From an uncultured virus (IMG/VR IMGVR_UViG_3300028840_007457) (taxonomy: Duplodnaviria; Heunggongvirae; Uroviricota; Caudoviricetes): a stretch of DNA of 64,000 bases. Location of the stretch: the IMG/VR virus record IMGVR_UViG_3300028840_007457; one strand, written 5' to 3'. Below the pieces are notes generated by a model. It saw only the letters and a list, made by a program, of their open reading frames with translations. It did not search any database and was not told the origin of the DNA. Shown piece after piece: positions 48,736 through 63,120 of this stretch. Within the stretch, counting starts at the first letter, position 1; every line of letters begins with the position of its first letter. Made by a program: the position numbers and the translations under genes.

Positions 48736-48777
48736 TTTCACAACCCAAAAACTAAGAGTCCACAAACGAAAGGAAAA

Positions 48778-49566: not shown

Positions 49567-49644
49567 ACTTTAAGTTTTTTCGGTTGCCCCAGTTCAAAAT
49601 CCATTTTAGCTCAAAATCCATTTTTCTGAGTTGGGAGCAATTTC

Positions 49645-50577
49645 ATGGCAGATGTTGAAAGATTACTAGTACCATATTTTAGTAGTGCTACAGGTTTTAG
49701 TAGACAAACTGTTGGAAGTGTAGCTGAACAAATTGTTAATGGTCAACCTCCAGAAAGTGATCAAACAACTCCTCCTCGTCATGCATATCATTATAGAGCG
49801 CCAGATATTTTAACAACTAGAGTAGGTCTAAGAAGAGGGATTTATATTAAACTATTTTGTAATCCTTCCAGTGGAAATTGGACGCTCACTAAAAGAGGTA
49901 ATTTTACTAAGACTGCTGGAGGAGGAGTTCACAATACTTGGAGGAATCGCCATAGGGGTTCATATTTTGATGTTTTCCCTTTAGCTTTAGAATTTCAGTC
50001 TGGAAATATTCACCCAAGTGCTGGTCATAATGTAGATTTGATGGATACTGAGCGAGCTATTTTGGCCCGCAATAATCCAAGATTGCCTCCTGGTTTGGAT
50101 AATTGGTACAAATTTCTAGCATTGGCCAATTCCAGCTCTTTAGACGGAAATGATCCTAATTATGTAATCTTAATTTATCATAGTAGAGTTTTTCCAAATT
50201 TATGGATTGAAGGCTTCTTTTCGGATGACTCTATTAGCTTCAATGAAGATGCCTATGCTAACGCCAATATGTTAAAATGGAGTGCTACTTTAATGGTGGT
50301 GCGTACAGCTCCTCCAATTCATAATTATGGTCTTATGAGGGCGATGTATATTGATTACATTAGAAATACAAATGCCAGAGAAGCCAGCCCCTTAGAAATA
50401 GCAGCTTATAATGAAGACCGTGAATGGCGAAATGCTAGAGAAATATTTGAACAGAGTCTTAATAAATTGGACGCTAAAGTTGCTCGAACAGAAGGTCAAC
50501 CTAGTAAATACCAAAAATTTAAAGCTGGTACTACAGGTACAGAAATTTCTGAACAAGGAGTAAACGTTTTAGCTTAA
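49645..50577 (+). CDS. Putative tail-tube-like/baseplate protein
   Basis: LFCNPS...TKTAGG...W...IEGFF...FNEDA pattern resembling tube-initiator proteins. Confidence 0.45.
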   Translation: MADVERLLVPYFSSATGFSRQTVGSVAEQIVNGQPPESDQTTPPRHAYHYRAPDILTTRVGLRRGIYIKLFCNPSSGNWTLTKRGNFTKTAGGGVHNTWRNRHRGSYFDVFPLALEFQSGNIHPSAGHNVDLMDTERAILARNNPRLPPGLDNWYKFLALANSSSLDGNDPNYVILIYHSRVFPNLWIEGFFSDDSISFNEDAYANANMLKWSATLMVVRTAPPIHNYGLMRAMYIDYIRNTNAREASPLEIAAYNEDREWRNAREIFEQSLNKLDAKVARTEGQPSKYQKFKAGTTGTEISEQGVNVLA

Positions 50578-51513
50578 ATTTACCAACCTTTTTAATTCTT
50601 TGTATTCTTTTTTAGAACCCAAAGCACCAGGATCACGTTTACGGGGACAGTAATAGTGTTCTATGGTAAACATGTCTTTTGCATCTTCTTCTACCTTTTT
50701 CCTCATTTTATCTCCAGCTTTATCTCCATCTGAAGCAACTACCAACCGTTTAATTCCCAAATTAATGAGGTGAATTATGTTGCTAACGTGCCAGCTGGTA
50801 GAACCAAGAGTACTCAAAGCAGGTATATCTTTATCTATGAGGCGAAGAGCATCATAAGGACCCTCAACAATAGCAACAGAAGTAGTACGCATTTGTTCTA
50901 CAATAAACCAAGGATAAAGGATATCTAATTTAGGTAAATTAGGCATATCTCGGTATTTCATATCTTTGCTTTTATCTAATCTTCGTGCAGTCCAACCTAT
51001 TAATTCTCCGTACATCCAAATTGGAAGCAGAACACGATCACAACGTTTTTTATCATCGTAGTAGTGGTAAGCTGTAGCAGCGTTCATAGTGTAGGCGCTG
51101 ACTTTTCTCCAACGTGTGGTCCACGGTTCTACATCCCAAGGAATGGAAGCTACAGCTTGAATTTTATTTCTTTTTTCTTTTAGTTGTTCTTTAAGTAGGT
51201 GAAAAGGGTCTGGCATCTCCTCTTCTGAAAGAGTGTCAGCATTTAATAACTTGGCAAGATCGTTCCAGGCGTGGCCTTTTTTTCCACACCCGAAACAATT
51301 AAATTTTCCATCTATTTTTTGTATACTTAGACTGGCGGTTTTTACGTCGTGGCCTCCATTAAATGGGCAAAATACCTGAAAATGTGTAGGGGTCTCACGG
51401 AAAATTTGCACACCTTTTCTCATGAGCTGCTGCGCAATGAAAATGCCTAGATTTTTAGGAGCTTTCTGCATTGTAGGAGTGTTTAACAAAAAGGTTTTAA
51501 AAACTGTTGACAA
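50569..51513 (-). CDS. DNA primase (Zn finger + TOPRIM)
   Basis: CPF..H..KTASL...FNCFGC; WTARR; IVEGPYDAL; DGDKAG; DPG. Confidence 0.9.
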   Translation of the reverse strand: MSTVFKTFLLNTPTMQKAPKNLGIFIAQQLMRKGVQIFRETPTHFQVFCPFNGGHDVKTASLSIQKIDGKFNCFGCGKKGHAWNDLAKLLNADTLSEEEMPDPFHLLKEQLKEKRNKIQAVASIPWDVEPWTTRWRKVSAYTMNAATAYHYYDDKKRCDRVLLPIWMYGELIGWTARRLDKSKDMKYRDMPNLPKLDILYPWFIVEQMRTTSVAIVEGPYDALRLIDKDIPALSTLGSTSWHVSNIIHLINLGIKRLVVASDGDKAGDKMRKKVEEDAKDMFTIEHYYCPRKRDPGALGSKKEYKELKRLVNLS

Positions 51514-51536
51514 CCATCACTATTATGTCATAATAT
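51507..51536 (+). promoter_or_regulatory. sigma70-type early promoter
   Basis: TTGACA then TGtCATAAT (16 nt) or TAATAT (18 nt), then AGGAG and ATG 51558. Confidence 0.65.
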
Positions 51537-51557
51537 TAAGTAGGAGATAAAAACCTC

Positions 51558-51920
51558 ATGAGTCGAAACGCAGCAGATACAGGAAACTGGATTAGAAAAG
51601 ATAAGCGTTTGGCCATTTACCTTCGGGATGGTGAAGCCTGTATCTGGTGTGGACATACCCTCGAAGACGGAGCTGAGCTTACCCTAGACCACCTTATTCC
51701 TTGTGAATTGGGTGGTGACAACAGCGAGAAAAATCTTGTAACCGCTTGTCGTTCCTGCAACTGCTCAAGAAGAGATCTCACTGTTCGTCAGTGGCTTGTA
51801 GTACTGAAGGATAAGGGTATTGACATTACAGGACTTTCTGTTAAAGTTCGTAAGCATGTGAGCCGGAAACTCACTTCGTATCGTAAGCTGGCGAAAAAAA
51901 TCATTGCTGCTCGGAGGTAA
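51558..51920 (+). CDS. HNH endonuclease
   Basis: RDGEACIWC...LTLDHLIP..LGG.N...NLVTACRSCN. Confidence 0.9.
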   Translation: MSRNAADTGNWIRKDKRLAIYLRDGEACIWCGHTLEDGAELTLDHLIPCELGGDNSEKNLVTACRSCNCSRRDLTVRQWLVVLKDKGIDITGLSVKVRKHVSRKLTSYRKLAKKIIAARR

Positions 51921-51925
51921 AAATT

Positions 51926-52114
51926 ATGAAGTTCTATCGGCAAAATTACAATGAATTCAAGAGTTGGGTTCGTTGGCACGATTACGTATCCATTCTCATT
52001 AACGAATTTCCTCTTCTTCTGGCTCGTCGCTACGATTGGATGGGAGATGAGAAGAGCACATTTTCCTTCTACGTGGCAGGTTTCAAGATTTACCAGAAAA
52101 TTTGGAGTTGGTGA
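51926..52114 (+). CDS. Small hypothetical protein
   Basis: GGAGGT RBS. Confidence 0.55.
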   Translation: MKFYRQNYNEFKSWVRWHDYVSILINEFPLLLARRYDWMGDEKSTFSFYVAGFKIYQKIWSW

Positions 52115-52383
52115 AAAAGTCCTCGCTGCCAGGAGATGATATTATGGAAAAAGATAAACGTTACGTCGTAATGGGTGGTGTTATGGAGTATATGGCACAC
52201 CTTCATTGTATAGCAGAATCGGAGGAGGAAGCGTTGGTCAAGTGGGACGCAGCCTTCCCGACTTGTGCGCGTGCAGTGTTTCTCCCGGAAGCGGTGAGCT
52301 TGGAGGAGCGTTCCGACATGGCAAAGCACTGGACCCATGATGGTTACCGGTACTACTCTGGTGGGTATCGGTACACGTACTAA
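52102..52383 (+). CDS. Small hypothetical protein
   Basis: Probable start MEKDKR after AGGAG. Confidence 0.55.
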   Translation: MELVKKSSLPGDDIMEKDKRYVVMGGVMEYMAHLHCIAESEEEALVKWDAAFPTCARAVFLPEAVSLEERSDMAKHWTHDGYRYYSGGYRYTY

Positions 52384-52392
52384 AGGAGTGTC

Positions 52393-52587
52393 ATGAGCAG
52401 ACCCGACGAAAGTATTTGTCCCCGCTGTGCGCAGTACATGGAAGCGCAACGGATAGGCAAGAACAAGGACGGCAAGCCCATCTTTATCTACATGTGCCAT
52501 ACGTGCAATTCCCGCCAGTCTGGTGCGCTCGAACATTACTGCATGTGCATGGGGATAGAGATGCCGAAGCGCAGGCGAGGTTGGTAA
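52393..52587 (+). CDS. Small Cys-rich protein
   Basis: AAGGAG RBS; CPRC...CHTC. Confidence 0.6.
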   Translation: MSRPDESICPRCAQYMEAQRIGKNKDGKPIFIYMCHTCNSRQSGALEHYCMCMGIEMPKRRRGW

Positions 52588-52684
52588 TGTTTTGTAAAAA
52601 CTTAACACAATTTTTCCGTGTAAAAATGGAGAGTTTGTAATTCTTCACAAGTGCGCTACCATCGTATACAAAAAGGAGTAACCC

Positions 52685-52951
52685 GTGTCAACCATTTATT
52701 GCAAGAAATGCGGAAACGCTCAACAAAGTGACGGTTTGGACCAGAATCACATCTACTGTCCCTGCCACACCAGTGACGAAAACGACGCTGGAACGGGGCT
52801 AATTTGTCTCAACCTTCGTGAGGGACCAGAGTGGCGCGGCATTTGCCCCGACTGTGACGCCGTGGTGGTGGAAAACAAAGAAAGTCGTAGAGTTCTCTAC
52901 GCGCGACCAAAAAAGAATGGTGAGCTGGACTTTTTCCGAGCTGTGGGGTAA
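52685..52951 (+). CDS. Small zinc-finger protein
   Basis: AAGGAG RBS; CKKC...CPC...CPDC. Confidence 0.6.
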   Translation: MSTIYCKKCGNAQQSDGLDQNHIYCPCHTSDENDAGTGLICLNLREGPEWRGICPDCDAVVVENKESRRVLYARPKKNGELDFFRAVG

Positions 52952-52959
52952 AAATAGTA

Positions 52960-53172
52960 ATGCCCAAACATCATTCCAATAATTCAGTTCTTTCACTTCC
53001 AGCAGATCTGCCGGAATATGTGAAACAAGAATTAAACGATGCCTTTGAAAAATGGAAAGCTAGTAAGACTATATCGAAAAATAATAGTTCTCTAGATGTT
53101 AATAGAATCGTTGATGCTTACGTAAAATTCTCTAAATTGATGCATAAGTATGTAGATGCTTCTTGGAGCTGA
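52960..53172 (+). CDS. Small hypothetical protein
   Basis: Tight packing in + strand operon. Confidence 0.5.
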   Translation: MPKHHSNNSVLSLPADLPEYVKQELNDAFEKWKASKTISKNNSSLDVNRIVDAYVKFSKLMHKYVDASWS

Positions 53173-53175
53173 AAA

Positions 53176-53433
53176 ATGTCAAAAAGAATTTGTTCCCACG
53201 GTGAAGACAGTAAAAACTGTACCGTTTGTTGTCCAACTTGTCTTGGAACCGGGTGGATTCTTTGCGTTTGCAAAGCAGGGGACGGTACAGATTCTATAGA
53301 ATCAGAAGATTGTCACGAATGTGACGGGTGTGGTAATTTAGAGTGTGGAGATTGTGGAGGCACCGGTTACGGTCCTCACAGAACCACCATTTTTCAAAAT
53401 TTTGGAGATGGTGTGTGGGTAGGTAGAGAGTAA
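53176..53433 (+). CDS. DnaJ-type CxxCxGxG zinc-finger protein
   Basis: CPTCLGTG, CHECDGCG, CGDCGGTG. Confidence 0.7.
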   Translation: MSKRICSHGEDSKNCTVCCPTCLGTGWILCVCKAGDGTDSIESEDCHECDGCGNLECGDCGGTGYGPHRTTIFQNFGDGVWVGRE

Positions 53434-53460
53434 TTTACCAAATACTTTTAAAATCTCCCT

Positions 53461-53488
53461 TTGACAAAAGTTACTTTTCTGTTATAAA
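53461..53488 (+). promoter_or_regulatory. sigma70-type early promoter
   Basis: TTGACA-16 nt-TATAAA with extended TG; AAGGAG RBS before 53513. Confidence 0.6.
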
Positions 53489-53512
53489 TCCTAATAGGAA
53501 GGAGTTAAAATC

Positions 53513-53770
53513 ATGTCAGCAACTTGGGTAAAAGAATTTGGGGATGACTTCTGGTGGGCAGACGTAATTACTCACTCTTGTGCTGTTACTTTTGCAGCTC
53601 GTATCAGAGAATACGATAGAATGTGTCGGGTTTACGGAGCCCAGGCTTTGGAAGCCAAGAAAGCTGGAAATTATCGACAGTACCTTTTTTGTCAGTACAA
53701 ATCTGACGCTTACGAATGTGCTTTGCGAAATGAACGAGAAGCCAGAAATGTTGGCTTTGGGATGAGGTGA
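53513..53770 (+). CDS. Small hypothetical protein
   Basis: Strong RBS after promoter. Confidence 0.6.
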   Translation: MSATWVKEFGDDFWWADVITHSCAVTFAARIREYDRMCRVYGAQALEAKKAGNYRQYLFCQYKSDAYECALRNEREARNVGFGMR

Positions 53771-53774
53771 AATC

Positions 53775-54038
53775 ATGGAAAAAGCAGCTAGATCTTGTCA
53801 TTGGGGACATTGGTGGATCGAATTTTGGAGAGGGGACATTCATGCTCTTCCAACTCTCAGTGACCCCCAGCCGAGAAAAGATTCCCAACTGGTTGCGAGA
53901 CTGCACTTTGGTGTCGGGCCTTGCGGACCTGTAGATGGTACGCTTGGGTCACCTACTCGTTCGAATTATCGCGAGTATTGCCATAACTGGACACTTAGTG
54001 GAGAGCTTCCTCAGGTATCTAATTTGGAAGTTATTTAA
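53775..54038 (+). CDS. Small hypothetical protein
   Basis: GAGGTG RBS. Confidence 0.55.
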   Translation: MEKAARSCHWGHWWIEFWRGDIHALPTLSDPQPRKDSQLVARLHFGVGPCGPVDGTLGSPTRSNYREYCHNWTLSGELPQVSNLEVI

Positions 54039-54043
54039 AAACG

Positions 54044-54232
54044 ATGTCAACCAAAACCGAGAAAAAAGAAAAAGTTGAGAAACCTTCTGGTCCTGGTTGG
54101 TGTAAAGTTTCTGGAAATCACTGGGAAAGAACTGTAGAAAAACCAGATTCTTCTTGTGGCTACTGTGGCTGCACCACGTTTGTGGAGTCAACCTACAGCT
54201 GGCCTTACTGCGCAGATTGTAAAGGCACTTGA
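54044..54232 (+). CDS. Small zinc-ribbon protein
   Basis: CGYC...CADC. Confidence 0.55.
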   Translation: MSTKTEKKEKVEKPSGPGWCKVSGNHWERTVEKPDSSCGYCGCTTFVESTYSWPYCADCKGT

Positions 54233-54233
54233 A

Positions 54234-54416
54234 ATGTCTTACATGGTTCTTTGTCGGGAAGATCGTAAACTGGATGGTACACCAGGCAGATTTGTTGTAG
54301 CAACCCAAAAACAATTTTCCTTACTAGAGGAAGCACAACACTACGTCGCTACCATCTCTTCTTCCAGAGAACCAAAGGTGGTGAAAATAACTTCTGAAAA
54401 GGAGCTAAAATCATGA
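54234..54416 (+). CDS. Small hypothetical protein
   Basis: ATG 1 nt after previous stop (MSYMVLCREDRK); ATGA overlap with next gene. Confidence 0.55.
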   Translation: MSYMVLCREDRKLDGTPGRFVVATQKQFSLLEEAQHYVATISSSREPKVVKITSEKELKS

Positions 54417-54823
54417 GCTACGAAGGCTACGAAATGTACTTGTGTGCCAACGGGCACCTGACCAGGGAAGATGCACTTGCTGGTTGTTACTTTGGAGAAG
54501 AGCCTACCATTTGCACAGTCTGCAAAGAACCCATGGTTTGGCGTTGCTGTGTGGACCAAACCAATGACGGTGGAGTGGCTCCTGTGTTGGTAGAGCACGA
54601 AGCAGAAAAGACCAAAACTTGTGAGTGTTGCGGTCACACACGAGTAACAGAAGAAGCCACTTTTTGCATTCCCTCCAACGCTGGACATCGGTTGAGGGAT
54701 GACCACGCTGACGAAATTCCAGCTGAAGTCCCCCTCGTGGAAGTCCAATTCAAAGACGTGGACAGTGGCGAGCTGTTTCCCACCGCTGACGAGGCGTGGA
54801 GAAACAAAGGCTACCACCGCTAG
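54413..54823 (+). CDS. Cys-rich hypothetical protein
   Basis: AAGGAG RBS; MSYEGY..LCANGH...CTVC...VDQTND...CECCGH. Confidence 0.65.
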   Translation: MSYEGYEMYLCANGHLTREDALAGCYFGEEPTICTVCKEPMVWRCCVDQTNDGGVAPVLVEHEAEKTKTCECCGHTRVTEEATFCIPSNAGHRLRDDHADEIPAEVPLVEVQFKDVDSGELFPTADEAWRNKGYHR

Positions 54824-54839
54824 CAGCTCCTCTTTTTTC

Positions 54840-54868
54840 TTGACAAAATTGTAGCACCGTGCAATAGT
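54840..54868 (+). promoter_or_regulatory. Possible sigma70-type promoter upstream of the cas12 operon
   Basis: TTGACA-17 nt-AATAGT with extended TG; flanked by inverted repeat AGCTCCTCT/AGAGGAGCT. Confidence 0.45.
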
Positions 54869-54900
54869 GAGGGAACTTTTCAGAGGAGCTATGCGTCTTT

Positions 54901-55291
54901 ATGTACTATAATGTCATTTATTTAGTAGTTGGGGAAACCGGTGAGCACGGTGATTTTCGTCATTGGATTGTAGCTGCTTTTACCGACAGAGAATCAGCTT
55001 ATTGTTGGCGCAGTTCTTGTCAAAAACATGCCGATGCTTTCTGCAAAAAAGATGGTCAGTATGATGAAGATTTTAGAGCTGAAAATGGTGATAAATTAGA
55101 GGAACGTGTAGAGGAACTAGCAATTAAACATCCTCTTAGGTGGTCTTAGATTGACAGCTATGTGGGAAATAAATCCATTTGACCCCCTTATGCGGGTAGA
55201 CTATACTGGAACTAATTATAAAATTGAAGAGGTTGTCTTTGATCCTTCCGATGAATCAAACACGTTTAATTTCTGTTTCAAACAAGTTTGA
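54901..55291 (+). pseudogene. Hypothetical phage gene apparently split by a +1 frameshift
   Basis: 54901..55149 (IYLVVGETGEHGDFRHWIVAAF) plus a +1-frame segment open from 55121 to 55291 (NPFDPLMRVDYTGTNYKIEEV). Confidence 0.4.
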
Positions 55292-55311
55292 GATTTTAGG
55301 AGTGACTTTCC

Positions 55312-57066
55312 ATGCGTGTTTACAAGTACGGCCTTCTTCGTCCTACCACCAATGCTGACCTGGTTCACGAGCAAATTAAAATAGGGCATAAGTATAGAAA
55401 TAAATTGATTGAGCTGGAGATCAAACGTAGGGATTTGATTCGAGCAGAGGTTGCAAAATCTTCTGTTGTGGAAGATGATTTTACCGATGCTAAACTCGCT
55501 GTTGAAAAGTTTAAGCATCTTGATAAGCTACTAAAACAAAAAAATGCACAACATAGAAGTAAAAGACACAATAATCCAGATCTAAAAAAAGACCACACCA
55601 AAGCCAGAAAAGAAAAAACAAAAGCCATTAAAAAACTAGAAGAGACTAGACGTAAAGTTCTTAAAAAGTGTAAAGAAACAATTAAAGTTTTTAATGATCA
55701 GTACATTGAAGAGGAGAAAAAAGTTAGAAGTGAATGTGCTCCTTTTTGGGGTACTTATCAAGTAATCGAAGATGCTATGAAAAGGTCTAGAAAATCTCTC
55801 CCTCTTTGGGATGGATTAGAATCAAATAATCCTAAATTCAGACGATTTAATGGCATTGGACGAGTGAGTATACAACTTCAAAAAGATGTCATTGATAAAA
55901 ATAATGGTATGAATGTTGATCTCGTTTTTGGTACAACAGATACCCGTCTTCAGGTGGCTCCTGTTCCAGAAGAAGCTTGGTACAGTCCTATTCGAAGTGT
56001 GAGGCGAAAAAAGTCTCGAACAGTTCTTAAAATGAGAATTGGGTCTGAGGGACGTGCCCCCATTTGGGCGGAGTGGCCTATGATCATGCACCGTCCTCTT
56101 CCTGACAACGGAAGAATTAAAAGGGTTACGGTCAACTTCCGTAAAATTGGACCACGGGAAGAATGGACAGCGGATTTCTTTATAAATGATAGTGCTACCC
56201 TTCATGAGCAATATGAAGTGTCAGGAGCTATTGGTTTGGACGTTGGGTGGCGTCTCATGGATGACGGTTCTCTTAGGGTAGCTTTCTGGGAGGATGATGA
56301 GGGAGAAAAAGGAGAGTTTCGCCTTTCTCCAACCCTCATGGGAGCATTTAAAAAAGCAGACGATCTACGGTCCATTAGAGACAAAAATAGGGATGAAATT
56401 AAAGAATTCTTGATTCAACATTTTAGTAAAAATCCCATGCCTAGTTGGATGTTGGATTTTGTAAAAGGAAAAGAAGACTCAAAACGACCTACCAATAAGC
56501 AAGCTTGTGTTTATCTTTCCAAGTGGAAATCAATTGCCAAACTAACGAAATTGGTTCAAACTTGGAAAGAAAAGGGTATTACTAAAAGACACCAAAAAGC
56601 TTATAACCGTTTTGAGGACTGGCGTTATCATGACTTTCATCTTTGGCAGTGGGAAACCAGTCAGAGGAAAAAAGCCGAACGTAGGCGGAAAGATAATTAT
56701 CGTGTACTTGCCTCAAAACTCTCTAAACAGTACCACACACTGGTGTTGGAAAATTTTGATTTGCGAAAGGTTGCCCGAAAGAAGGCAGCAGATGATGATT
56801 CTTTAGATATTAAAGCAGCTAATCACAATAGATTTGTAGCCAATATTAGTGAGCTTCGATTGGTACTTAGAAATGCTTTTGAAAAGTGTGGAGAGATTGA
56901 ACTTGTAAAGGCTGTAAATACTACCAAAATTTGTTTCTGGTGTGGATTTATTAATAATTTCGACCAGGCTAAAAATCTGATTCACCAGTGCTACAGTTGT
57001 GGTGTGGTGTGGGATCAAGATGATAACGCCTCAACAAATATTAGACGAAGACGAAAACAGGGATAA
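55312..57066 (+). CDS. cas12m: Compact type V CRISPR effector, Cas12m-like (V-M/V-U1), 584 aa
   Basis: AGGAG RBS; FWGTY...FRRFNGIGRVSIQLQ, MRIGS, MHRPLP, GLDVGWR (D310), LVLENFD (E480), CFWC/CYSC zinc finger, DQDDNA (D570); CRISPR array 171 nt downstream. Subtype from recalled resemblance to Cas12m sequences. Confidence 0.8.
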   Translation: MRVYKYGLLRPTTNADLVHEQIKIGHKYRNKLIELEIKRRDLIRAEVAKSSVVEDDFTDAKLAVEKFKHLDKLLKQKNAQHRSKRHNNPDLKKDHTKARKEKTKAIKKLEETRRKVLKKCKETIKVFNDQYIEEEKKVRSECAPFWGTYQVIEDAMKRSRKSLPLWDGLESNNPKFRRFNGIGRVSIQLQKDVIDKNNGMNVDLVFGTTDTRLQVAPVPEEAWYSPIRSVRRKKSRTVLKMRIGSEGRAPIWAEWPMIMHRPLPDNGRIKRVTVNFRKIGPREEWTADFFINDSATLHEQYEVSGAIGLDVGWRLMDDGSLRVAFWEDDEGEKGEFRLSPTLMGAFKKADDLRSIRDKNRDEIKEFLIQHFSKNPMPSWMLDFVKGKEDSKRPTNKQACVYLSKWKSIAKLTKLVQTWKEKGITKRHQKAYNRFEDWRYHDFHLWQWETSQRKKAERRRKDNYRVLASKLSKQYHTLVLENFDLRKVARKKAADDDSLDIKAANHNRFVANISELRLVLRNAFEKCGEIELVKAVNTTKICFWCGFINNFDQAKNLIHQCYSCGVVWDQDDNASTNIRRRRKQG

Positions 57067-57237
57067 GGGTCTGCGAGAGCTTCGGTGGTGAGAAAAATCT
57101 AGGAGGCTCTCGCACCCGTAAAAACAGATAGTTACGTTCTTTGACAAAAGAAAAGTAGGCCATTTTGAGCTTGGTAAAAGAGGCTCTCGCAAAGCTCCAG
57201 GTAAAAATGCTAAATGTTTGGTGTTTTTACTGGAGCG
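57067..57237 (+). promoter_or_regulatory. CRISPR leader with inverted and direct repeat motifs
   Basis: TGCGAGAGC 57072-57080; GAGGCTCTCGCA at 57103-57114 and 57180-57191; hairpin 57194-57236 abutting repeat 1. Confidence 0.6.
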
Positions 57238-57713
57238 GTAACAACACCAGTCCAAAGGTTTATGATTTGGAACGCATATAATTAATATTACCAGGCAAGC
57301 AAAAATACGAGTGTAACAACACCAGTCCAAAGGTTTATGATTTGGAACACTTGTCTGCCAAGCCATGCCTTCGTCGCCTTCGGGTAACAACACCAGTCCA
57401 AAGGTTTATGATTTGGAACTGAAAAAAAGGCAGGAGGCGATAGCAAAGTGCCTTGCCAAGTAACAACACCAGTCCAAAGGTTTATGATTTGGAACATCTG
57501 AAATCGTCTCATGCAACCGTTCCTTCGTGAGTAACAACACCAGTCCAAAGGTTTATGATTTGGAACGTGCCTTAGCAAACTGGCCGGAAGTATCGTGTCG
57601 TTTGTGTAACAACACCAGTCCAAAGGTTTATGATTTGGAACCTTATCTTCGACAAGCCATGAGGTCAACCTAATTTTGTAACAACACCAGTCCAAAGGTT
57701 TATGATTTAAAAT
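57238..57713 (+). CRISPR. CRISPR array, 7 repeats / 6 spacers
   Basis: 36-nt repeat GTAACAACACCAGTCCAAAGGTTTATGATTTGGAAC at 57238, 57313, 57384, 57460, 57531, 57606 (identical) and 57678 (3' degenerate); spacers 39, 35, 40, 35, 39, 36 nt; stem TCCAAA/TTTGGA then AC. Confidence 0.98.
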
Positions 57714-57740
57714 ATATAGTCAAAGGAAGACTAGTAATAC

Positions 57741-57975
57741 GTACCAACAGTAGCTCAACACTTTTGAAGTTGAGACTGCAGGACATGTGGCAACAATCCT
57801 GTATAATAACAATAGCTCAACATTTTTAGAGTTGAGACATAGCAGTTGATCAACTTTGTAAAACAGGACAAGAAACCGACACTACTGCAGCAACAGAATC
57901 AGCTCAGAGATTTGCCTTTTCTGAGACCGAAGAGGTTCCTTGCTCATAGTAGCTTAGTGCTTTAATAACTAAGAC
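57741..57975 (+). CRISPR. Non-canonical array of 4 divergent, structure-conserved repeat-like units
   Basis: Units 57741-57776, 57803-57838, 57890-57927, 57940-57975, each N11-AG-6 bp stem-9 to 11 nt loop-stem-AC like the canonical repeat. Confidence 0.75.
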
Positions 57976-58009
57976 AACCGCGCGTTGCAGCTTTTAAAAA
58001 GGTGAAAAA

Positions 58010-58339
58010 TTGACTCGTTTACGTTGTACACTTTGTGAGTGGACCCAAGATCATTTTTGGGATCAAACTCTTCACAACCCCATTAAAAATCTTCTCTCGC
58101 TTGAAAAAGATCTATTAGAAAAAGATTTAGATGAAATTGTTAAAGGAGATAATGAAGGTAAACGTCCTCCTCTTCCCAGACGAACGCTAATTGCTATGCT
58201 CATGCAAAAAGCCTCTTCTAAGGTATTGTCTATGAAGTGGAGAACCTACGATGAATGGAAAAATGATCCTCATCCCTATTGTCCACAATGTGACGCTGAA
58301 TTAGAACTACACGGAACAGATTCTGAATTAGGAGACTAA
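58010..58339 (+). CDS. Hypothetical zinc-binding protein
   Basis: AGGTG RBS; CTLC...CPQC. Confidence 0.6.
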   Translation: MTRLRCTLCEWTQDHFWDQTLHNPIKNLLSLEKDLLEKDLDEIVKGDNEGKRPPLPRRTLIAMLMQKASSKVLSMKWRTYDEWKNDPHPYCPQCDAELELHGTDSELGD

Positions 58340-58340
58340 T

Positions 58341-59279
58341 TTGCTTCCCGTACCTACCGTCGAAAATATCGATAAAGACATACTTTCCGGTTTTAAAGCA
58401 ATCCGAGAGGGGGAAAGAGAGTTAGACTATCCAGTTTTTACTGAGGTGCGTGCCAGCTCCATGCCTATTTGCCCCCGAGCTATTCATATTTCTAGAAGAT
58501 TACCCAGGAAAAAAAGACCTTCTAAAACGGAAAAATTCGTCAGTGAAGCCTCTACCCTCATGGGTACAGCTCTTCATCTTGTTCTTCAAAAATGGTTCGC
58601 TATCATGTTCCCAGATTCCTTTTATGGAAATTGGGAATGTCTTTTTTGTAAAACTTTAATTAAACACAAAGCTGGAATTCAAATCTGCCCCTCGTGTGGG
58701 CGAGAAATGATCTACAAAGAATACTTTATTAAAAAGCAGAAAGGCATACCTTTTGACGGACACGTTGACGGTATTTTAAGATTCCCAGATGCTAATTATC
58801 TTTTGGACTACAAAGGTTCTTACCAGGAAAAAATGCGCTCTATTCGTATTGAGAGAAGACCAGTTAGGGGTCATTTTTATCAAACAAACAGTTACGCTTG
58901 TGCTATCAATACTGGTAAGGTACCTGTTGGAAAACTGGGTAAAATTAGTAAAATCATCATTATCTATATAGAAAGAGGGAAACCTCACCGCTTGTGGTAT
59001 CCCATGCAAGTAAGTGTAGATAAAAACGCCTATAAGCAGACAAAACAGTACATTCGTCTAGGAAATAGAAGTCTTAAAGATTTGGTGCTTCCACGTGGAT
59101 TTTGCATGGGACCAAAAGATGAAATTGGACGCTGGTGTATTTGGAATCCTATCTGTTTTTCTCCTACGTTAGAAGATAAATTAAGTGACCGTGTTTACCC
59201 TGAAAAGAAATTTAAACCCAAGCGTACTGAGCTTCTTCCTCTTTTGCTCGATTCAGAGAATATGAAAAATCAGAGCTAA
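58341..59279 (+). CDS. Cas4-like PD-(D/E)XK exonuclease with Fe-S-type Cys motif and Zn-ribbon insert
   Basis: RASSMPICPR, GTALH, GHVDG, LLDYKG, QTNSY, C-terminal C...C...C; insert CLFC...CPSC. Confidence 0.8.
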   Translation: MLPVPTVENIDKDILSGFKAIREGERELDYPVFTEVRASSMPICPRAIHISRRLPRKKRPSKTEKFVSEASTLMGTALHLVLQKWFAIMFPDSFYGNWECLFCKTLIKHKAGIQICPSCGREMIYKEYFIKKQKGIPFDGHVDGILRFPDANYLLDYKGSYQEKMRSIRIERRPVRGHFYQTNSYACAINTGKVPVGKLGKISKIIIIYIERGKPHRLWYPMQVSVDKNAYKQTKQYIRLGNRSLKDLVLPRGFCMGPKDEIGRWCIWNPICFSPTLEDKLSDRVYPEKKFKPKRTELLPLLLDSENMKNQS

Positions 59280-59293
59280 GAGGTAATGTCCAC

Positions 59294-59608
59294 ATGTCTA
59301 ATCTGTCTCCACCATCTGTTTTGGAGGAAAATCTTTTAGAAAATCTTAGAAATTTGGATAGAATTGGGGATTTGGATCCAACCATTTTGGTCCAGCTTCT
59401 TTTTTCTTTTTTGGCAGAAGAAATTGGTGACTTAGAAGTCAATCAAACTAGACTTGGAGATTTGTATATTTTGAATTTTGTAGTGGGAGAAAATAATAAG
59501 GCTAAAATTATTGGTAAAAAGGGTCACATACTGAAAGCTGTGTGCAGTATTTGTAAAGCTTATTTTAAGACCCGAGGAAAAGATGTAGTTATTAATGTTA
59601 AAGATTAA
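59294..59608 (+). CDS. KhpA-like single KH-domain RNA-binding protein
   Basis: V...NKAKIIGKKGHILKAVCSI (GxxG loop); KhpA-like size. Confidence 0.7.
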   Translation: MSNLSPPSVLEENLLENLRNLDRIGDLDPTILVQLLFSFLAEEIGDLEVNQTRLGDLYILNFVVGENNKAKIIGKKGHILKAVCSICKAYFKTRGKDVVINVKD

Positions 59609-60288
59609 CGGAATTTAGTAAAACTGGCAGAACGTTTATTAGCAGCAACTTGAGCTTCTTTCTCTTCTAACGCTTGCATTTTATCTAAAGCGGGGTTACC
59701 GTGTTGGGTAAGAGCCCATTTTTGCGCTTTGAAAAGATGCTTACAGAGGTAGGGTATTTTAAGAGGATTGGTAACGTTGGGTTGTTCACCATTTGAGTTT
59801 TTAATGCTAGAACTATCTAAACCACTCAAAACGGTTTCGAGCACAAATTTAAAATTTTCGCAAGAACACCATACCCAAACAGGGGTATCAACACTAATAG
59901 GTCCATAAAATCGAATCAAGGATTTGTGTTTTCTTCCGGAACCACCAGAAGCTTTAGAGGAAACACTGTAAACACGGGCTTGATTATAAAATGTCTTATA
60001 CTTATAATAAGTACGTCGGAAGCCATCCATGGAACCAGCTTCAAAATGTCTTTCAACTAATCTAACACCGTATGATCTTTCTCTTATACTGTCTGGAGTA
60101 GCAATAACCAGCTCTTTAAGAGTCATCTCAGGAAGATCTTGACTCTTATACTTTAACTTCCCAGCTGCTAAATGCAGGGCTTGAGCGTATTTTAGAATAT
60201 CTTGTCTAGGCATTTTGATTTCCTTCTTTGTTAAAGAGTAACTAAGAAACTTAGGAGATACCATCTTTGTCTTCCTCTTCTGATGCAA
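59605..60288 (-). CDS. SWIM-type zinc-finger protein
   Basis: VWCSCENF...LCKHL; probable start MPRQDIL. Confidence 0.7.
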   Translation of the reverse strand: MHQKRKTKMVSPKFLSYSLTKKEIKMPRQDILKYAQALHLAAGKLKYKSQDLPEMTLKELVIATPDSIRERSYGVRLVERHFEAGSMDGFRRTYYKYKTFYNQARVYSVSSKASGGSGRKHKSLIRFYGPISVDTPVWVWCSCENFKFVLETVLSGLDSSSIKNSNGEQPNVTNPLKIPYLCKHLFKAQKWALTQHGNPALDKMQALEEKEAQVAANKRSASFTKFR

Positions 60289-61589
60289 CCTGGAAAGTAT
60301 TTAACCAGATTGCTAAAAAAGTGCTTGCTCAACACAATATCGAAGGGGATGATCTTAAAGATGTATTTTTAGAAATAGAGCAGTACATTTTTTACGCTCT
60401 TGATTTAATTATACAACATACTAGTTTTGTGGAAGATAATCTGTGTTATCTTCTTAGTGAAATAGCTACAGGAATAATAAAAAGCAGAAAAGTATATAAA
60501 GGAAAAAGAACTAAAAAAAGGGTAACCGTTGGACCTTTTGCAGATATGGGAATTGAAAATTACCGAATTTTGTCTGCGGGTTTTGATCTTTTTAAACTTT
60601 CCCGGTGCCCTCGAAAAGAAGCTGCTCCTCGTGTGAAACGTGTAGTTCGTTCAATTAAACTAGGTACTCATGTCTACGAAAATATTGTGAAAGCCTTTGT
60701 AAATAAAACCGAACCTTATATAGGTTTAGTAGAAGACTTATTATTCACCCAATTAAAAAACGAAAACAATAGTAAGATCGAGGAATTGGAATTACAGATA
60801 ATTGATTTGGAAAAAAGTGTGGGTTGTTGTGATCCAGATAACCTATATGGGGTAGTGAGTTTAGTGCGAAGAGTTTTAAATAGAATTTGCAATCTTCAAG
60901 AAAAAATTATTCGTGCTTATCAAAAAATGATTCTTAAGCCTGCTAGAAGGAAATCACGTTCTGAAAATGAAGCACTAGAAAATTTTCAAGCGGGAAGTTT
61001 AGGATTAGCACACGCAGTTTCTGTTTTTGACTTAGACAATAATTCATCTTTTCCATCTTTTGCAAATTACTGGATTAATCAAAAAATACTAGGCTTCTTA
61101 AAAAGAAAAGGCCCTCTTATTAAATTGAGCTGGTCTACATGGGAAAGCTATCTACTCATACGTCGTGCGGAAAAGAAGTTTGAAGATGATCCCATTAAAC
61201 GATACAGTTATACAGATTCTGATATTGCCAAAGAACTAAATAAAAGTATTCGTAGTATTCGTAAAGTACGAGAAAAGGTTCAAACTGTTAAAGTTGTTCC
61301 TTTAGATGATGTGGTACGAAACCAAGACGGAACTGATTCCAACCTTGTAAAAGGAGAGACACTGATAGACACTAGTTTTGAAAAAACAGAGGAATTGGAA
61401 AATTATCGAAAATTGTTTAAGAATATTCTTCAGAATCTTTCTCCTTTGGAGAAAAAAGTAGTTTGTTTGAGATTTGGATTAATTGATGAACTTAAAAATG
61501 TTAAATTAAATGAGGTGGAAGTAGCAAAAGAACTACTAAGGCAAACGGCATGTAAAGCTGCTGCCTATGTGTATTTAACTCACAAATAA
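60267..61589 (+). CDS. Phage sigma70-family RNA polymerase sigma factor
   Basis: Region 2 ENFQAGSLGLAHAVSVFD...FPSFANYWINQKI; region 3 DSDIAKEL; region 4 start LSPLEKKVVCLRFGL. Confidence 0.85.
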   Translation: MSSSSDATWKVFNQIAKKVLAQHNIEGDDLKDVFLEIEQYIFYALDLIIQHTSFVEDNLCYLLSEIATGIIKSRKVYKGKRTKKRVTVGPFADMGIENYRILSAGFDLFKLSRCPRKEAAPRVKRVVRSIKLGTHVYENIVKAFVNKTEPYIGLVEDLLFTQLKNENNSKIEELELQIIDLEKSVGCCDPDNLYGVVSLVRRVLNRICNLQEKIIRAYQKMILKPARRKSRSENEALENFQAGSLGLAHAVSVFDLDNNSSFPSFANYWINQKILGFLKRKGPLIKLSWSTWESYLLIRRAEKKFEDDPIKRYSYTDSDIAKELNKSIRSIRKVREKVQTVKVVPLDDVVRNQDGTDSNLVKGETLIDTSFEKTEELENYRKLFKNILQNLSPLEKKVVCLRFGLIDELKNVKLNEVEVAKELLRQTACKAAAYVYLTHK

Positions 61590-61659
61590 ACTAAAATCCA
61601 ACTTTGTTAAAATAGAGACAGAAGAAACCAAAAAACCAAAACCTGTGAGGTGATTTTAA

Positions 61660-63120
61660 ATGTCAGACTACAGAGGCGGTAGAATGGGATTCGATGACGA
61701 TCCCGCTGAAAGCCAGAAAAAATGGTACACACAATTTTCTTACATTGATCCCCCTGATGCTGAAGAAACTAAAGAAGTGCGTCCTGCTGGAGGAATGTAT
61801 CCTGTTGCGCAGCATTGGATTAGGTTTAAAAAAGAAGGAGGAGGGTGGGGTAGTTTTGCAATTGTATGTCCCGATTACGATAGAGTAGCTCGTAAATTTA
61901 AAAGTGGTTCGGAATCTGTATGTCCTATCCATAGGGATTTTCAGTCTGAAAAACTTCCTGATAAACTTAAATTCTATGCTTCATTTAGATATTATTTTGA
62001 TGCTTTTGATATTCAAAAAATTAAAGATGGTGCTAGAAGGGGTAAGCTGTTTGGAGTAATTAGTTGTAATAAATATGGTCGAAAAGATATTACTAAAATA
62101 GGAAAACAGATTAGACGTCCTGTTGACGATTTAAAGAAAGGTATGACTTTATTTTGGATGCACGATGATGATGCTGGAGATGCTAAAGAGAAAGATAGTT
62201 TTTCTAAAGGGGATCCTTTTAAAATTAAGTGGATTAAAAAGAAGGGTCTTTATTTGTTAGAATATGAGGGGAATAAAATTTATGGGGAGCCAACTCCTTA
62301 TGAAGAGATTGTCCCAATTCCAGATCCAGAGGAAATTGAGGAAACTTTAACCCGTGTCGGCTGTTACGACTTGCTTGAGGAGGCATTAGGTAAAATGGCA
62401 AAGAAGTCCAAAAAGAAGCCTACCAAGACGTCTAAGCGTAAGGGACGTGCTGAGTATGACGAGGATGACGACGACGAAGATCTGGATAGCGAATATGAAG
62501 ACGATGAAGATGAGGAAGAGTACGAGGAGGATGAAGACGAGGAAGAGTACGATGACGACGATGATGACGACGACGATGATGACGACGATGATGATTTAGA
62601 TGACGACGATGAAGATGAAGACGATGATGATTTAGATGACGACGATGAAGATGAAGACGATGAAGATGAAGACGATGATGATGATGATGAAGACGATGAC
62701 GACGACGACGATGATGACGACGACGATGATGATGAAGACGATGACGACGACGACGATGATGATTTAGATGACGACGATGATGACGACGATGACGACGACG
62801 ATGATGACGACGATGATGACGACGATGATGACGACGATGATGACGACGATGATGACGATGATGACGACGATGATGACGACGATGATGACGACGATGATGA
62901 CGACGATGATGACGACGACGATGACGACGATGATGATGATGATGATGACGATGATGACGATGATGATGACGACGACGATGATGACGAAGAACCAGCGCCT
63001 AAGAAACGTAGGTATAGTAAGAAGCGCAAAGATGCCAAAAAGAAAAAGGCAGCTCCGAAAAAGCGTGGACGTCCAAAGGGCAGCAAAAATAAGAAAACTA
63101 AAAAGAAGCGCAAGAAATAG
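61660..63120 (+). CDS. gp32-like single-stranded DNA-binding protein with long acidic tract and AT-hook tail
   Basis: HW...CP...CPIH...RYY core; ~180-codon D/E tract; KKRGRPKGSKNK; upstream of recA-like gene. Confidence 0.6.
   Translation: MSDYRGGRMGFDDDPAESQKKWYTQFSYIDPPDAEETKEVRPAGGMYPVAQHWIRFKKEGGGWGSFAIVCPDYDRVARKFKSGSESVCPIHRDFQSEKLPDKLKFYASFRYYFDAFDIQKIKDGARRGKLFGVISCNKYGRKDITKIGKQIRRPVDDLKKGMTLFWMHDDDAGDAKEKDSFSKGDPFKIKWIKKKGLYLLEYEGNKIYGEPTPYEEIVPIPDPEEIEETLTRVGCYDLLEEALGKMAKKSKKKPTKTSKRKGRAEYDEDDDDEDLDSEYEDDEDEEEYEEDEDEEEYDDDDDDDDDDDDDDDLDDDDEDEDDDDLDDDDEDEDDEDEDDDDDDEDDDDDDDDDDDDDDEDDDDDDDDDLDDDDDDDDDDDDDDDDDDDDDDDDDDDDDDDDDDDDDDDDDDDDDDDDDDDDDDDDDDDDDDDDDDDDDDDDDEEPAPKKRRYSKKRKDAKKKKAAPKKRGRPKGSKNKKTKKKRKK
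62452..62991 (+). repeat. GAY/GAR trinucleotide low-complexity tract (poly-Asp/Glu)
   Basis: Runs of GAT/GAC, often as GATGATGACGAC units. Confidence 0.95.

What the first reader, a model, noticed from the sequence alone, without database searches (positions are those of the whole stretch)
55312..57713. Phage-encoded Cas12m-like effector with an intact D-E-D RuvC triad and no cas1/cas2
Seen: 584-aa protein with D310, E480, D570 and a zinc finger, an adjacent array with a 3' hairpin+AC repeat, and no cas1/cas2 in the window. It sits at the end of an early-type operon. Established: characterised Cas12m proteins process their own crRNA and silence DNA by binding, with non-canonical RuvC residues and no DNA cleavage. 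Inference: this is either a nuclease-competent, tracr-independent compact relative (a TnpB-to-Cas12m intermediate) or a silencer that retains the triad. Either would be of evolutionary and tool interest.
Basis: partly seen in the sequence, partly recalled or inferred. Interest (0 to 1): 0.78.

Follow-up and report, generated by a model that had tools for sequence, protein, structure and literature searches.

The report
Phage Cas12m DNA-binding CRISPR locus
A large marine-sediment phage carries a compact CRISPR system of the known Cas12m type, which most likely silences target DNA by binding rather than cutting; close equivalents are already published, so it is a new example and not a new kind.

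Summary
ORF 55312-57066 (+) encodes a 584-aa protein with D310/E480/D570 and a CxxC...CxxC zinc ribbon. A CRISPR array follows, and no cas1, cas2 or cas4 is detectable in the window. The protein is a full-length Cas12m (type V-M, formerly V-U1): PADLOC Cas12u1 E 9.6e-96, and an AlphaFold model (pLDDT 95.7) with TM 0.81-0.83 to Cas12m2 and GoCas12m. Its closest solved relative is TfCas12m (PDB 23vw).

The intact triad is not unusual. D-E-D is the majority state among its homologs (74 of 105). Bigelyte et al. 2024 tested four D-E-D Cas12m proteins, including TfCas12m and one from an IMG/VR viral contig, and none cut dsDNA. A 2026 preprint describes a phage Cas12m with D-E-D, an array and no cas1/2/4. 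The protein is not a TnpB-to-Cas12m intermediate.

Two things are new here. The 36-nt repeat folds as a pseudoknot with strong covariation across 16 loci. The array also continues to 57975, with four divergent repeat units that keep every base pair through compensatory changes.

Spacer targets were not found. Verdict: a new member of a known kind, most likely a binding-only silencer.

The parts
55179..55207 (+). sigma-70-like promoter candidate (TTGACC-17-TATACT) in the 162-nt gap upstream of cas12m
   Evidence: Consensus scan, 10 of 12 matches. The scan found 33 sites in 9 kb against 16.5 expected from shuffles, so this is weak evidence.
55312..57066 (+). cas12m (type V-M effector), 584 aa, with D310/E480/D570, the H260-R261 dyad and a C541/C544/C560/C563 zinc ribbon
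57067..57237 (+). leader between cas12m and the first repeat, strongly structured with two long hairpins
   Evidence: MFE -65.5 kcal/mol against a shuffle mean of -45.4 (sd 4.4), z = -4.6, 0 of 200 shuffles as low, for 57060-57240. Its role is not known.
57238..57713 (+). main CRISPR array: six identical 36-nt repeats, one terminal repeat with a broken 3' stem (57678-57713) and six spacers of 35-40 nt
57741..57776 (+). trailer repeat unit A (S1 AGT:ACT, S2 CTCAAC:GTTGAG, ends in AC)
   Evidence: Covariance model 30.6 bits, E 3.3e-5 over the whole window. Strict architecture scan. MFE hairpin.
57803..57838 (+). trailer repeat unit B (S1 AAT:ATT, S2 CTCAAC:GTTGAG, ends in AC)
   Evidence: Covariance model 16.7 bits. 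Architecture scan. Found as direct repeat D3 together with unit A.
57890..57927 (+). trailer repeat unit C (S1 ATC:GAT, S2 CTCAGA:TCTGAG, 8-nt linker, ends in AC)
   Evidence: Covariance model 21.5 bits. Architecture scan.
57940..57975 (+). trailer repeat unit D (S1 AGT:GCT with one G-U pair, S2 CTTAGT:ACTAAG, ends in AC)
   Evidence: Covariance model 16.8 bits for 57943-57975. Architecture scan hit starting at 57940.

Best explanation
This is a type V-M (Cas12m) CRISPR locus carried by a large, phage-like element from marine sediment. Shown here: the protein is a full-length Cas12m by profile and by fold. It keeps the H-R dyad that contacts the end of the crRNA handle in Cas12m2. Its repeat has the family's pseudoknotted handle ending in G...AC. 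No anti-repeat (tracrRNA) is present, and no adaptation genes lie in the window. Inferred from published work on close relatives: Cas12m cuts its own pre-crRNA within the 5' part of each repeat. The mature RNA is a pseudoknot handle of about 28 nt followed by a guide of about 17-20 nt. The complex finds a 5' T- or C-rich PAM, opens an R-loop and stays bound, blocking transcription or replication without cutting DNA. In this model the D-E-D site holds the displaced strand through Mg2+ rather than hydrolysing it. For the phage, the likely use is silencing of competing mobile elements or host genes during infection. The six identical repeats next to four old, divergent but structurally intact repeats suggest a recently expanded array beside an ancient remnant. 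That would imply spacers were added in trans or before capture by the phage.
For: Family: PADLOC Cas12u1 E 9.6e-96 over residues 1-581. PDB phmmer gives 23vw_A E 2.2e-74, UnCas12m4a 1.8e-26, GoCas12m 4e-25 and Cas12m2 1.3e-21. The printed 23vw sequence is that of TfCas12m in Tables S1-S3 of PMC11013384.

Fold: pLDDT 95.7, pTM 0.89. Foldseek TM 0.81 to 8hhl and 0.83 to 8pm4; the next fold class (Cas12f, Cas12p, TnpB) reaches at most 0.44.

H260/R261 align to Cas12m2 H269/R270 and are at least 90% conserved in 105 homologs.

Repeat pseudoknot: 97.2% of 144 cells paired, 9 of 9 pairs with changes on both sides, 0 of 500 shuffles as high, and slid controls 23-47% paired. The pairing scheme matches the one described for PmCas12m crRNA.

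No anti-repeat of 11 nt or more within 54000-60000.

Published function: eight Cas12m tested (four D-E-D), none cleaving dsDNA. Purified D-E-D MsCas12m showed no cis or collateral cleavage. TfCas12m interfered with a plasmid only when aimed at the ori.

D-E-D is the common state: 74 of 105 and 80 of 120.

Viral context is recurrent: 16 IMG/VR loci and Virus Rctr197k with an annotated array. Cas1 was found in 0 of 5 such viral records, two of them rated 100% complete. Al-Shayeb 2020 reports V-U systems without adaptation genes in huge phages.
Against: No biochemical test exists for this protein or its five-member clade, and TfCas12m is a distant relative (254 bits). No protospacer was found for any spacer, so neither PAM, target nor biological role is shown. 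There was nothing in GenBank phages or PLSDB plasmids for the whole array. There was nothing in IMG/VR for spacers 2 and 5. In JGI metagenomes spacer 1 matched only the element's own contig. Strict retention of D-E-D in most of the family is unexplained if the site only binds DNA. Omura 2023 explicitly raised hydrolysis for clades 3 and 4. The phage assignment rests on PHROG hits to baseplate, connector, replication and recombination genes. No capsid or terminase gene was recognised in the window, and two structural candidates had no match in GenBank phages. Minimum-free-energy values of single repeats are not better than shuffles (z from 0.06 to -3.4), so the structure rests on covariation.
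Confidence: 0.75

Rival explanations
1. The protein is a nuclease-competent Cas12m. In this reading the intact D-E-D site cuts target DNA (double-strand, nick or single-strand), perhaps only under conditions or with host factors absent from published assays.
For: The triad is intact and aligns to the catalytic positions. It is invariant in the 20 closest homologs. Omura 2023 suggested that clades 3 and 4 may hydrolyse DNA. The MvCas12m preprint also suggests nuclease activity from the same residues. A listing shows another phage-borne miniature Cas12 that needs host thioredoxin; I saw only its title and the start of its abstract.
Against: Four D-E-D Cas12m, including the closest solved relative TfCas12m and a viral-contig protein, gave no dsDNA cleavage. 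Purified D-E-D MsCas12m gave no cis or collateral cleavage of DNA or RNA. TfCas12m interference was limited to the ori target. Converting Cas12m2 from HDD to DED did not restore cleavage (reported there as data not shown). The depositors named 23vw a 'DNA-binding protein'.
Confidence: 0.1
2. The locus is not used for defence or competition. It would instead be a fixed-guide regulator or a decaying relic: the guides are old, no longer match anything, or repress genes of the phage or host as a programmed switch. The trailer units might be decoy RNAs against rival Cas12m systems.
For: No target was found for any spacer tested. There is no adaptation module in the window. Relatives in two Polyangiaceae MAGs and on some viral contigs carry only a single repeat followed by a partly conserved guide. 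The S2 stems of trailer units A, B and C are identical to the S2 stems of the L001 and Rctr197k repeats. The Koonin-group review notes phage single-repeat units that inhibit CRISPR systems (abstract of PMC11656645).
Against: Six perfectly identical repeats and an intact ORF argue against decay. No self-match of spacers or trailer segments beyond 11-12 nt occurs in the window. Heterogeneous but structured repeats also occur inside ordinary arrays of relatives (3 stem variants in L001, 5 in L002, 3 in L007), so an old array end is the simpler reading of the trailer.
Confidence: 0.12
3. The gene is an ordinary IS200/IS605- or IS607-type TnpB with its own omega RNA, and the repeats are unrelated.
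For: NCBIfam IS607_TnpB matches the C-terminal part at E 4e-6. The Pfam TNB domain is shared with TnpB. Public sources name some homologs 'transposase'.
Against: The IS607_TnpB score is 26 bits against a cut-off of 350. The full-length profile and fold matches are to Cas12m, and TnpB structures reach only TMq 0.37-0.40. No TnpA lies nearby. The array sits directly 3' of the gene, as in 12 of 20 related loci.
Confidence: 0.01

Closest known systems
TfCas12m (Thermanaerosceptrum fracticalcis DRI-13, QNB45423.1; PDB 23vw); clade c3 in Bigelyte et al. 2024
   Same: Best solved-structure match (E 2.2e-74, residues 5-578). Same D-E-D triad at aligned positions (D306/E459/D550 against D310/E480/D570). 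Similar size (567 aa against 584). Single-crRNA system.
   Different: Only distantly related (254 bits). Bacterial chromosome rather than a phage-like element. This protein is untested, whereas TfCas12m showed no dsDNA cleavage and interfered at the ori.
UnCas12m from an IMG/VR viral contig (Bigelyte et al. 2024, Tables S1/S2, clade c3, D304/E457/D548, 583 aa)
   Same: A D-E-D Cas12m of the same size from a viral contig, with an adjacent array.
   Different: Different habitat (deep subsurface aquifer, per Table S1). Its similarity to P0001 was not measured here. I did not read which of the six binding-positive proteins it was.
MvCas12m of myxophage MV-1 (bioRxiv 10.64898/2026.09.14.751636)
   Same: Phage-encoded V-M locus with D-E-D (D305/E463/D555), an adjacent array of 8 spacers, no cas1/2/4, no tracrRNA and no protospacers found (passages).
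   Different: High-GC myxobacterial host lineage against a 38% GC marine-sediment element. That phage genome is complete, whereas only a 64-kb window was available here. No trailer of divergent repeats appears in the passages I read.
Cas12m2 (MmCas12m, PDB 8hhl) and GoCas12m (PDB 8pm4)
   Same: Same fold (TM 0.81 and 0.83). Same H-R dyad (H269/R270 against H260/R261). Same handle logic, with a pseudoknot ending in a G:A pair plus C(-1).
   Different: They carry H-D-D in place of D-E-D. Sequence identity in the fold alignment is about 19%.
Type V-U loci of huge phages (Al-Shayeb et al. 2020) and the Virus Rctr197k locus (KX853510)
   Same: Compact arrays (median six repeats), no Cas1/Cas2/Cas4, effectors with conserved catalytic residues. 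Rctr197k has a 35%-identical homolog next to a 1.5-kb annotated CRISPR, with the same repeat architecture.
   Different: Those loci were catalogued, not characterised. In Rctr197k the gene is annotated only as 'similar to transposase'.
TnpB (ISDra2, PDB 8h1j)
   Same: Shares the RuvC plus zinc-ribbon/TNB core.
   Different: TnpB is about 400 aa without the REC2 coiled coil. It uses an omega RNA rather than a CRISPR array. TMq is only 0.40.

Membership tests
Cas12m / CRISPR-Cas type V-M (formerly V-U1) | Full-length sequence match to the V-U1/Cas12m profile | tested here: met
   PADLOC Cas12u1 E 9.6e-96, residues 1-581 on profile positions 3-530 of 533. PDB Cas12m chains E 2e-74 to 1e-21.
Cas12m / CRISPR-Cas type V-M (formerly V-U1) | Bilobed fold: WED, REC1/REC2 coiled-coil insertion, RuvC and zinc-ribbon/TNB | tested here: met
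   AF2 model pLDDT 95.7. TM 0.81-0.83 to 8hhl and 8pm4 over about 617 aligned columns. Long helices at 15-162 and 340-473.
Cas12m / CRISPR-Cas type V-M (formerly V-U1) | CRISPR array directly 3' of the gene with about 36-nt repeats forming a pseudoknotted handle that ends in AC | tested here: met
   The pairing scheme is as described for PmCas12m and Cas12m2 crRNA.
Cas12m / CRISPR-Cas type V-M (formerly V-U1) | Conserved His-Arg dyad in WED that reads the 3' end of the handle | tested here: met
   H260/R261 align to Cas12m2 H269/R270 and are at least 90% conserved in 105 homologs.
Cas12m / CRISPR-Cas type V-M (formerly V-U1) | No tracrRNA | tested here: met
   No exact anti-repeat of 11 nt or more in 54000-60000. 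One 10-nt match lies inside the CDS. This is a sequence test only; no RNA data were available.
Cas12m / CRISPR-Cas type V-M (formerly V-U1) | No adaptation module (cas1, cas2, cas4) in the locus | tested here: met
   None among the 67 window ORFs given to PADLOC. The rest of the ~298-kb contig was not searchable.
Cas12m / CRISPR-Cas type V-M (formerly V-U1) | PAM-dependent dsDNA binding without cleavage, and self-processing of pre-crRNA | not testable with these tools
   Known only for relatives (PMC11013384, PMC10442227).
Cas12m clade 3 (D-E-D / N-E-D) | D-E-D or N-E-D at the RuvC triad, and closest to clade-3 references | tested here: inconclusive
   The triad is D-E-D, and the best characterised match is the c3 member TfCas12m, far ahead of UnCas12m4a (254 against 96 bits).
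TnpB (IS200/IS605, IS607) | Score above the family cut-off, about 400 aa, TnpA partner or IS ends, omega RNA | tested here: not met
   NCBIfam IS607_TnpB 26 bits against a cut-off of 350. The protein is 584 aa with a REC2 insertion. No TnpA among the neighbours.
Cas12f (V-F) | 400-550 aa effector that works as a dimer with a tracrRNA | tested here: not met
   Foldseek TMq at most 0.41 to Cas12f structures. No anti-repeat. One PADLOC model labelled 'Cas12f' (PDLC01692, E 4.3e-93) matches full length like the Cas12u1 model. I read this as a naming overlap in that library, which is my inference.

The most novel reading that the evidence does not exclude
The four trailer units (57741-57975) may be working crRNA handles rather than debris. 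One Cas12m would then read at least five different handle sequences by shape plus a few fixed bases (G13, A35, C36). In that case the locus records two phases: an old array whose repeats drifted by compensatory change, and a recent burst of six acquisitions that copied one derived repeat. That would mean a phage without Cas1-Cas2 gains spacers in trans. A bolder variant is that the trailer units, whose stems match those of other Cas12m systems, act as RNA decoys against rival elements' Cas12m.
Probability: 0.3. Interest if true: 0.55.

Novelty: new member of a known kind. Interest (0 to 1): 0.3.

Why it matters
The headline claim, a phage Cas12m with an intact D-E-D triad and no cas1/cas2, repeats what is already in print, so it does not open a new question. 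It adds a low-GC, marine-sediment, large-phage lineage (a five-member, all-D-E-D clade) to a family whose characterised members come mostly from bacteria and plasmids.

The more useful results concern the RNA. Covariation across 16 loci supports the pseudoknotted handle. Arrays in this family tolerate very different stem sequences as long as pairing is kept. That bears on guide design for Cas12m tools and on how arrays evolve when no adaptation module homogenises the repeats.

The retained triad remains an open biochemical question for the whole clade. This protein would be one more candidate for testing it, not a special one.

Tried and rejected
Spacer targets:
- The whole array region against GenBank phages and PLSDB plasmids (blastn, E up to 1) gave no match.
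- The 24-nt prefixes of spacers 2 and 5 in IMG/VR gave none.
- The spacer 1 prefix in JGI metagenomes matched only the element's own contig (L021, identical to window 47274-62780).
- Spacers 3, 4 and 6 were not scanned in the large collections.
- Self-targets in the window: longest match 11 nt. Trailer segments: 12 nt.
- Spacers against the 20 related loci: best match 14 nt, E 0.02.

Own genome: none is held, so cas1/cas2 outside the window could not be checked.

IMG/VR searches: the exact repeat gave nothing, and the single-protein query gave nothing. The 20-sequence alignment worked.

Sequencing runs: no RNA holder is listed. The two DNA holders have contigs of identical lengths and may be one data set filed twice. 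Their contigs break at the array, so spacer variation could not be read.

Synteny: none of 17 neighbouring ORFs, including the PD-(D/E)XK gene, has a relative in the 20 related loci. I therefore rejected the idea that the Cas4-like gene is an accessory of the system.

Phage hallmark genes: no capsid or terminase was recognised. Two structural candidates had no match in GenBank phages. An Atlas look-up of the 430-aa ORF gave only scores under 0.9.

Other:
- Rfam gave nothing at or near threshold in 54800-58400.
- Earlier findings of this scan: none for this genome.
- Wu et al. 2022 (Mol Cell) is not held. Its clade scheme is quoted from Omura 2023.
- A search for 'Cas12m3/Cas12m4/UnCas12m4a' found no paper, so what was learnt from the 23vu/23vw structures is unknown to me.
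- bioRxiv supplements are closed, so the MvCas12m sequence could not be compared.
Full report
**What is there.** The window is about 38% GC. It carries replication, recombination and nucleotide-metabolism genes typical of large phages:
- UvrD-like, DnaB-like and other helicases
- primase
- the large subunit of ribonucleotide reductase
- a RuvC-like resolvase
- a UvsX-like recombinase
- a sigma factor
- an HNH endonuclease

It also has a baseplate-wedge-like protein, a head-tail-connector-like protein and a tail-spike-type Peptidase_G2 domain. The protein of interest occurs on contigs of up to 298 kb. Two public runs labelled sediment and seawater metagenome hold the stretch, and they may be one data set filed twice. 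No capsid or terminase gene was recognised in the window, and nothing similar is in GenBank phages. 'Huge phage' is therefore the most likely reading, but not a proven one.

**The observation.** ORF 55312-57066 (+) encodes 584 aa with D310, E480 and D570 and a CxxC...CxxC zinc ribbon. An array of seven 36-nt repeats and six spacers of 35-40 nt starts 171 nt downstream. The first six repeats are identical, and the seventh has lost its 3' stem. No Cas1, Cas2 or Cas4 profile matched any of the 67 ORFs tested with PADLOC.

**What the protein is.** The PADLOC Cas12u1 model (V-U1, the old name of V-M) matches end to end at E 9.6e-96. Pfam sees only the TNB zinc-ribbon domain. The NCBIfam IS607 TnpB model scores 26 bits against a cut-off of 350. 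Against PDB sequences the order is:

| PDB chain | Protein | E-value |
|---|---|---|
| 23vw | 'CRISPR-associated DNA-binding protein Cas12m' | 2.2e-74 |
| 23vu | UnCas12m4a | 1.8e-26 |
| 8pm4 | GoCas12m | 4e-25 |
| 8hhl / 8hio | Cas12m2 | 1.3e-21 |
| (several) | TnpB and Fanzor | above 5e-4 |

. The printed 23vw sequence is that of TfCas12m, Thermanaerosceptrum fracticalcis QNB45423.1, labelled clade c3 in the supplement of Bigelyte et al. 2024.

An AlphaFold2 model built on 105 homologs has pLDDT 95.7 and pTM 0.89. Foldseek places it on Cas12m2 (TM 0.81) and GoCas12m (TM 0.83) over its whole length. Cas12f, Cas12p and TnpB reach at most 0.44.

Counting through the phmmer alignments gives these equivalences:
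- D310/E480/D570 fall on TfCas12m D306/E459/D550.
- The same residues fall on Cas12m2 H317/D485/D579.
- H260/R261 fall on Cas12m2 H269/R270, the dyad that Omura et al. describe as reading C(-1) and the G:A pair of the crRNA handle.

**Is the intact triad unusual?** No. Of the 120 best homologs listed I aligned 105, dropping 15 that were fragments, fusions or much longer. The triad is D-E-D in 74, N-D-D in 10, N-E-D in 7, H-D-D in 6, and other states in 8. A FastTree of these plus 15 viral-contig proteins (L009 was left out because only a partial match was found) shows D-E-D in 80 of 120, with other states scattered in small groups. This is a quick tree with local support only. P0001 sits in a fully supported five-member clade with P0002, P0003, P0004 and the IMG/VR protein of L001, all of them D-E-D. 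The family is large: 1,750 clusters at 50% identity match at E <= 1e-30.

In print:
- Omura et al. 2023 quote four clades, with clades 3 and 4 mainly D-E-D, and speculate that they might hydrolyse DNA (Discussion).
- Bigelyte et al. 2024 then tested eight proteins: four D-E-D, two H-D-D and two N-D-D. They saw no dsDNA cleavage for any. Six of the eight showed PAM-dependent binding. Purified D-E-D MsCas12m showed no cis or collateral activity. TfCas12m interfered with a plasmid only when aimed at the ori (passages and section 38).
- One of their four D-E-D proteins, UnCas12m, came from an IMG/VR viral contig (Tables S1/S2).
- A September 2026 preprint describes MvCas12m in a complete myxophage genome. 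It has D-E-D, eight spacers, no cas1/2/4, no tracrRNA and no targets found (passages).
- Al-Shayeb et al. 2020 had already reported V-U variants in huge phages, almost all without adaptation genes and with a median of six repeats.
- A review notes that V-M is enriched on plasmids and present in some prophages.

**Relatives on viral contigs.** A 20-sequence alignment found 16 IMG/VR loci encoding relatives at 26-42% identity. GenBank holds one, Virus Rctr197k (197 kb), where the gene is annotated as 'similar to transposase' beside a 1.5-kb annotated CRISPR. A covariance model of the repeat finds three or more hits directly 3' of the gene in 12 of 20 related loci. Cas1 (PF01867) was found in 0 of 5 of the viral records, two of which are rated 100% complete. 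The same search scored in 7 of 14 control genomes. None of this window's neighbouring genes recurs in those loci. The cas12m-plus-array module therefore moves as a unit.

**The crRNA handle.** Aligning one repeat from each of 16 loci gives invariant A6, G13, A35 and C36 and two crossing helices:
- S1: columns 9-11 with 20-22
- S2: columns 14-19 with 29-34

Of 144 cells, 97.2% pair. All 9 pairs show changes on both sides. No shuffle out of 500 reaches the observed values for four of five measures, and sliding the partners by 1-3 columns drops pairing to 23-47%. This H-type pseudoknot ending in G...AC matches what the cryo-EM papers describe for Cas12m2 and PmCas12m. Single-repeat folding energies are unremarkable. 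There is no anti-repeat in the flanks.

**The trailer.** A covariance model built from those 16 repeats, with S2 as its structure, was run without filters over the whole window. Its eleven best hits all lie at 57238-57975 on the + strand:

| Element | Score (bits) |
|---|---|
| six main repeats | 36.2 each |
| unit A, 57741-57776 | 30.6 |
| unit C, 57890-57927 | 21.5 |
| unit D, 57943-57975 | 16.8 |
| unit B, 57803-57838 | 16.7 |
| broken seventh repeat | 15.0 |
| best hit elsewhere in the window | 11.3 |

A sequence-blind scan was also run. It required 3 of 3 S1 pairs, 6 of 6 S2 pairs, a G before S2, a 5-8 nt linker and a terminal AC. It finds the six main repeats, units A-D and one stray hit on the + strand, plus one hit on the - strand, in 64 kb.

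The stems differ between units:

| Unit | S1 | S2 (5' arm) |
|---|---|---|
| main repeat | ACC:GGT | TCCAAA |
| A | AGT:ACT | CTCAAC |
| B | AAT:ATT | CTCAAC |
| C | ATC:GAT | CTCAGA |
| D | AGT:GCT | CTTAGT |

The trailer stems are closer to the family consensus, and identical to those of L001 and Rctr197k, than the main repeat is. Arrays of relatives also mix stem variants that all pair: 3 in L001, 5 in L002 and 3 in L007.

My reading, which is inference, is that the trailer is the old end of the locus. Its repeats drifted under selection for shape. The six identical copies of a derived repeat reflect recent additions, either in trans or before capture by this element. A decoy role for the trailer units is a less likely alternative.

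**What remains unknown.** No protospacer was found, so target, PAM and biological role are open. Spacers average 45.5% GC against 37.9% for the window. That is a weak hint that the targets are foreign DNA. Expression could not be assessed.

**Verdict.** This is a real, intact type V-M locus on a large phage-like element. It most likely works as a crRNA-guided DNA binder that blocks transcription or replication (confidence 0.75), with nuclease activity a minority possibility (0.1). It is a new member of a known kind. The intact triad and the lack of cas1/cas2 are both typical and already published for close equivalents.

Noticed in passing
window 57060-57240: The leader between cas12m and the first repeat is unusually structured (MFE -65.5 against -45.4 for shuffles, z -4.6). 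One long hairpin lies right after the stop codon and another abuts the first repeat. The motif GAGGCTCTCGCA occurs twice and could pair alternatively with TGCGAGAGC.
   Followed up: partly
window 58341-59279 (+): A 312-aa PD-(D/E)XK, Cas4-like nuclease with an inserted zinc ribbon lies about 370 nt after trailer unit D (630 nt after the seventh main-array repeat). It matches phrog_1706 'CRISPR/Cas system associated' at E 3.3e-20, and its Atlas neighbours are viral PD-(D/E)XK clusters at 0.99. There is no Pfam, PADLOC Cas4 or PDB hit. It is not found next to cas12m in any of 20 related loci, so it is probably an ordinary phage exonuclease.
   Followed up: yes
L018 2253-2288 and L019 9869-9904 (Polyangiaceae MAGs); also L003 9752-9788 and L010 9959-9994: Some Cas12m relatives are followed by a single repeat unit instead of an array. 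In the two Polyangiaceae MAGs the sequence after the solitary repeat starts with the same 9 nt and stays similar. That would fit a fixed natural guide, meaning a regulator rather than an immune locus.
   Followed up: partly
window 56063-56096: A second, GC-rich contig in the same runs matches 34 nt of the conserved WPMIMHRPLP region with 3 differences. Another organism in that community probably also has a Cas12m homolog.
   Followed up: no
window 57349-57383 and 57642-57677; 57420-57459 and 57567-57605: Spacers 2 and 6 share the 9-mer CAAGCCATG, and spacers 3 and 5 share GTGCCTT. I estimate roughly a 1-in-10 chance for one such 9-mer among six spacers, so this may be chance or may hint at related targets (sequences).
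   Followed up: no
window 3217-8622 (-) and 18632-24025 (-): Two ORFs of about 1,800 aa have no PHROG match and no Pfam match above its curated cut-off (only a sub-threshold Peptidase_M23 trace in one). They lie in what looks like the structural module.
   Followed up: no
window 60267-61589 (+) and 59294-59608 (+): A phage sigma-factor-like gene (phrog_351 E 7e-21; Sigma70_r2) and a small KH-domain protein lie just downstream of the CRISPR locus.
   Followed up: no
window 56739-56748: A 10-nt exact complement of the repeat (ACTGGTGTTG) lies inside the cas12m coding sequence. I expect about 0.08 such matches by chance, and it is too short and too isolated to call an anti-repeat.
   Followed up: partly
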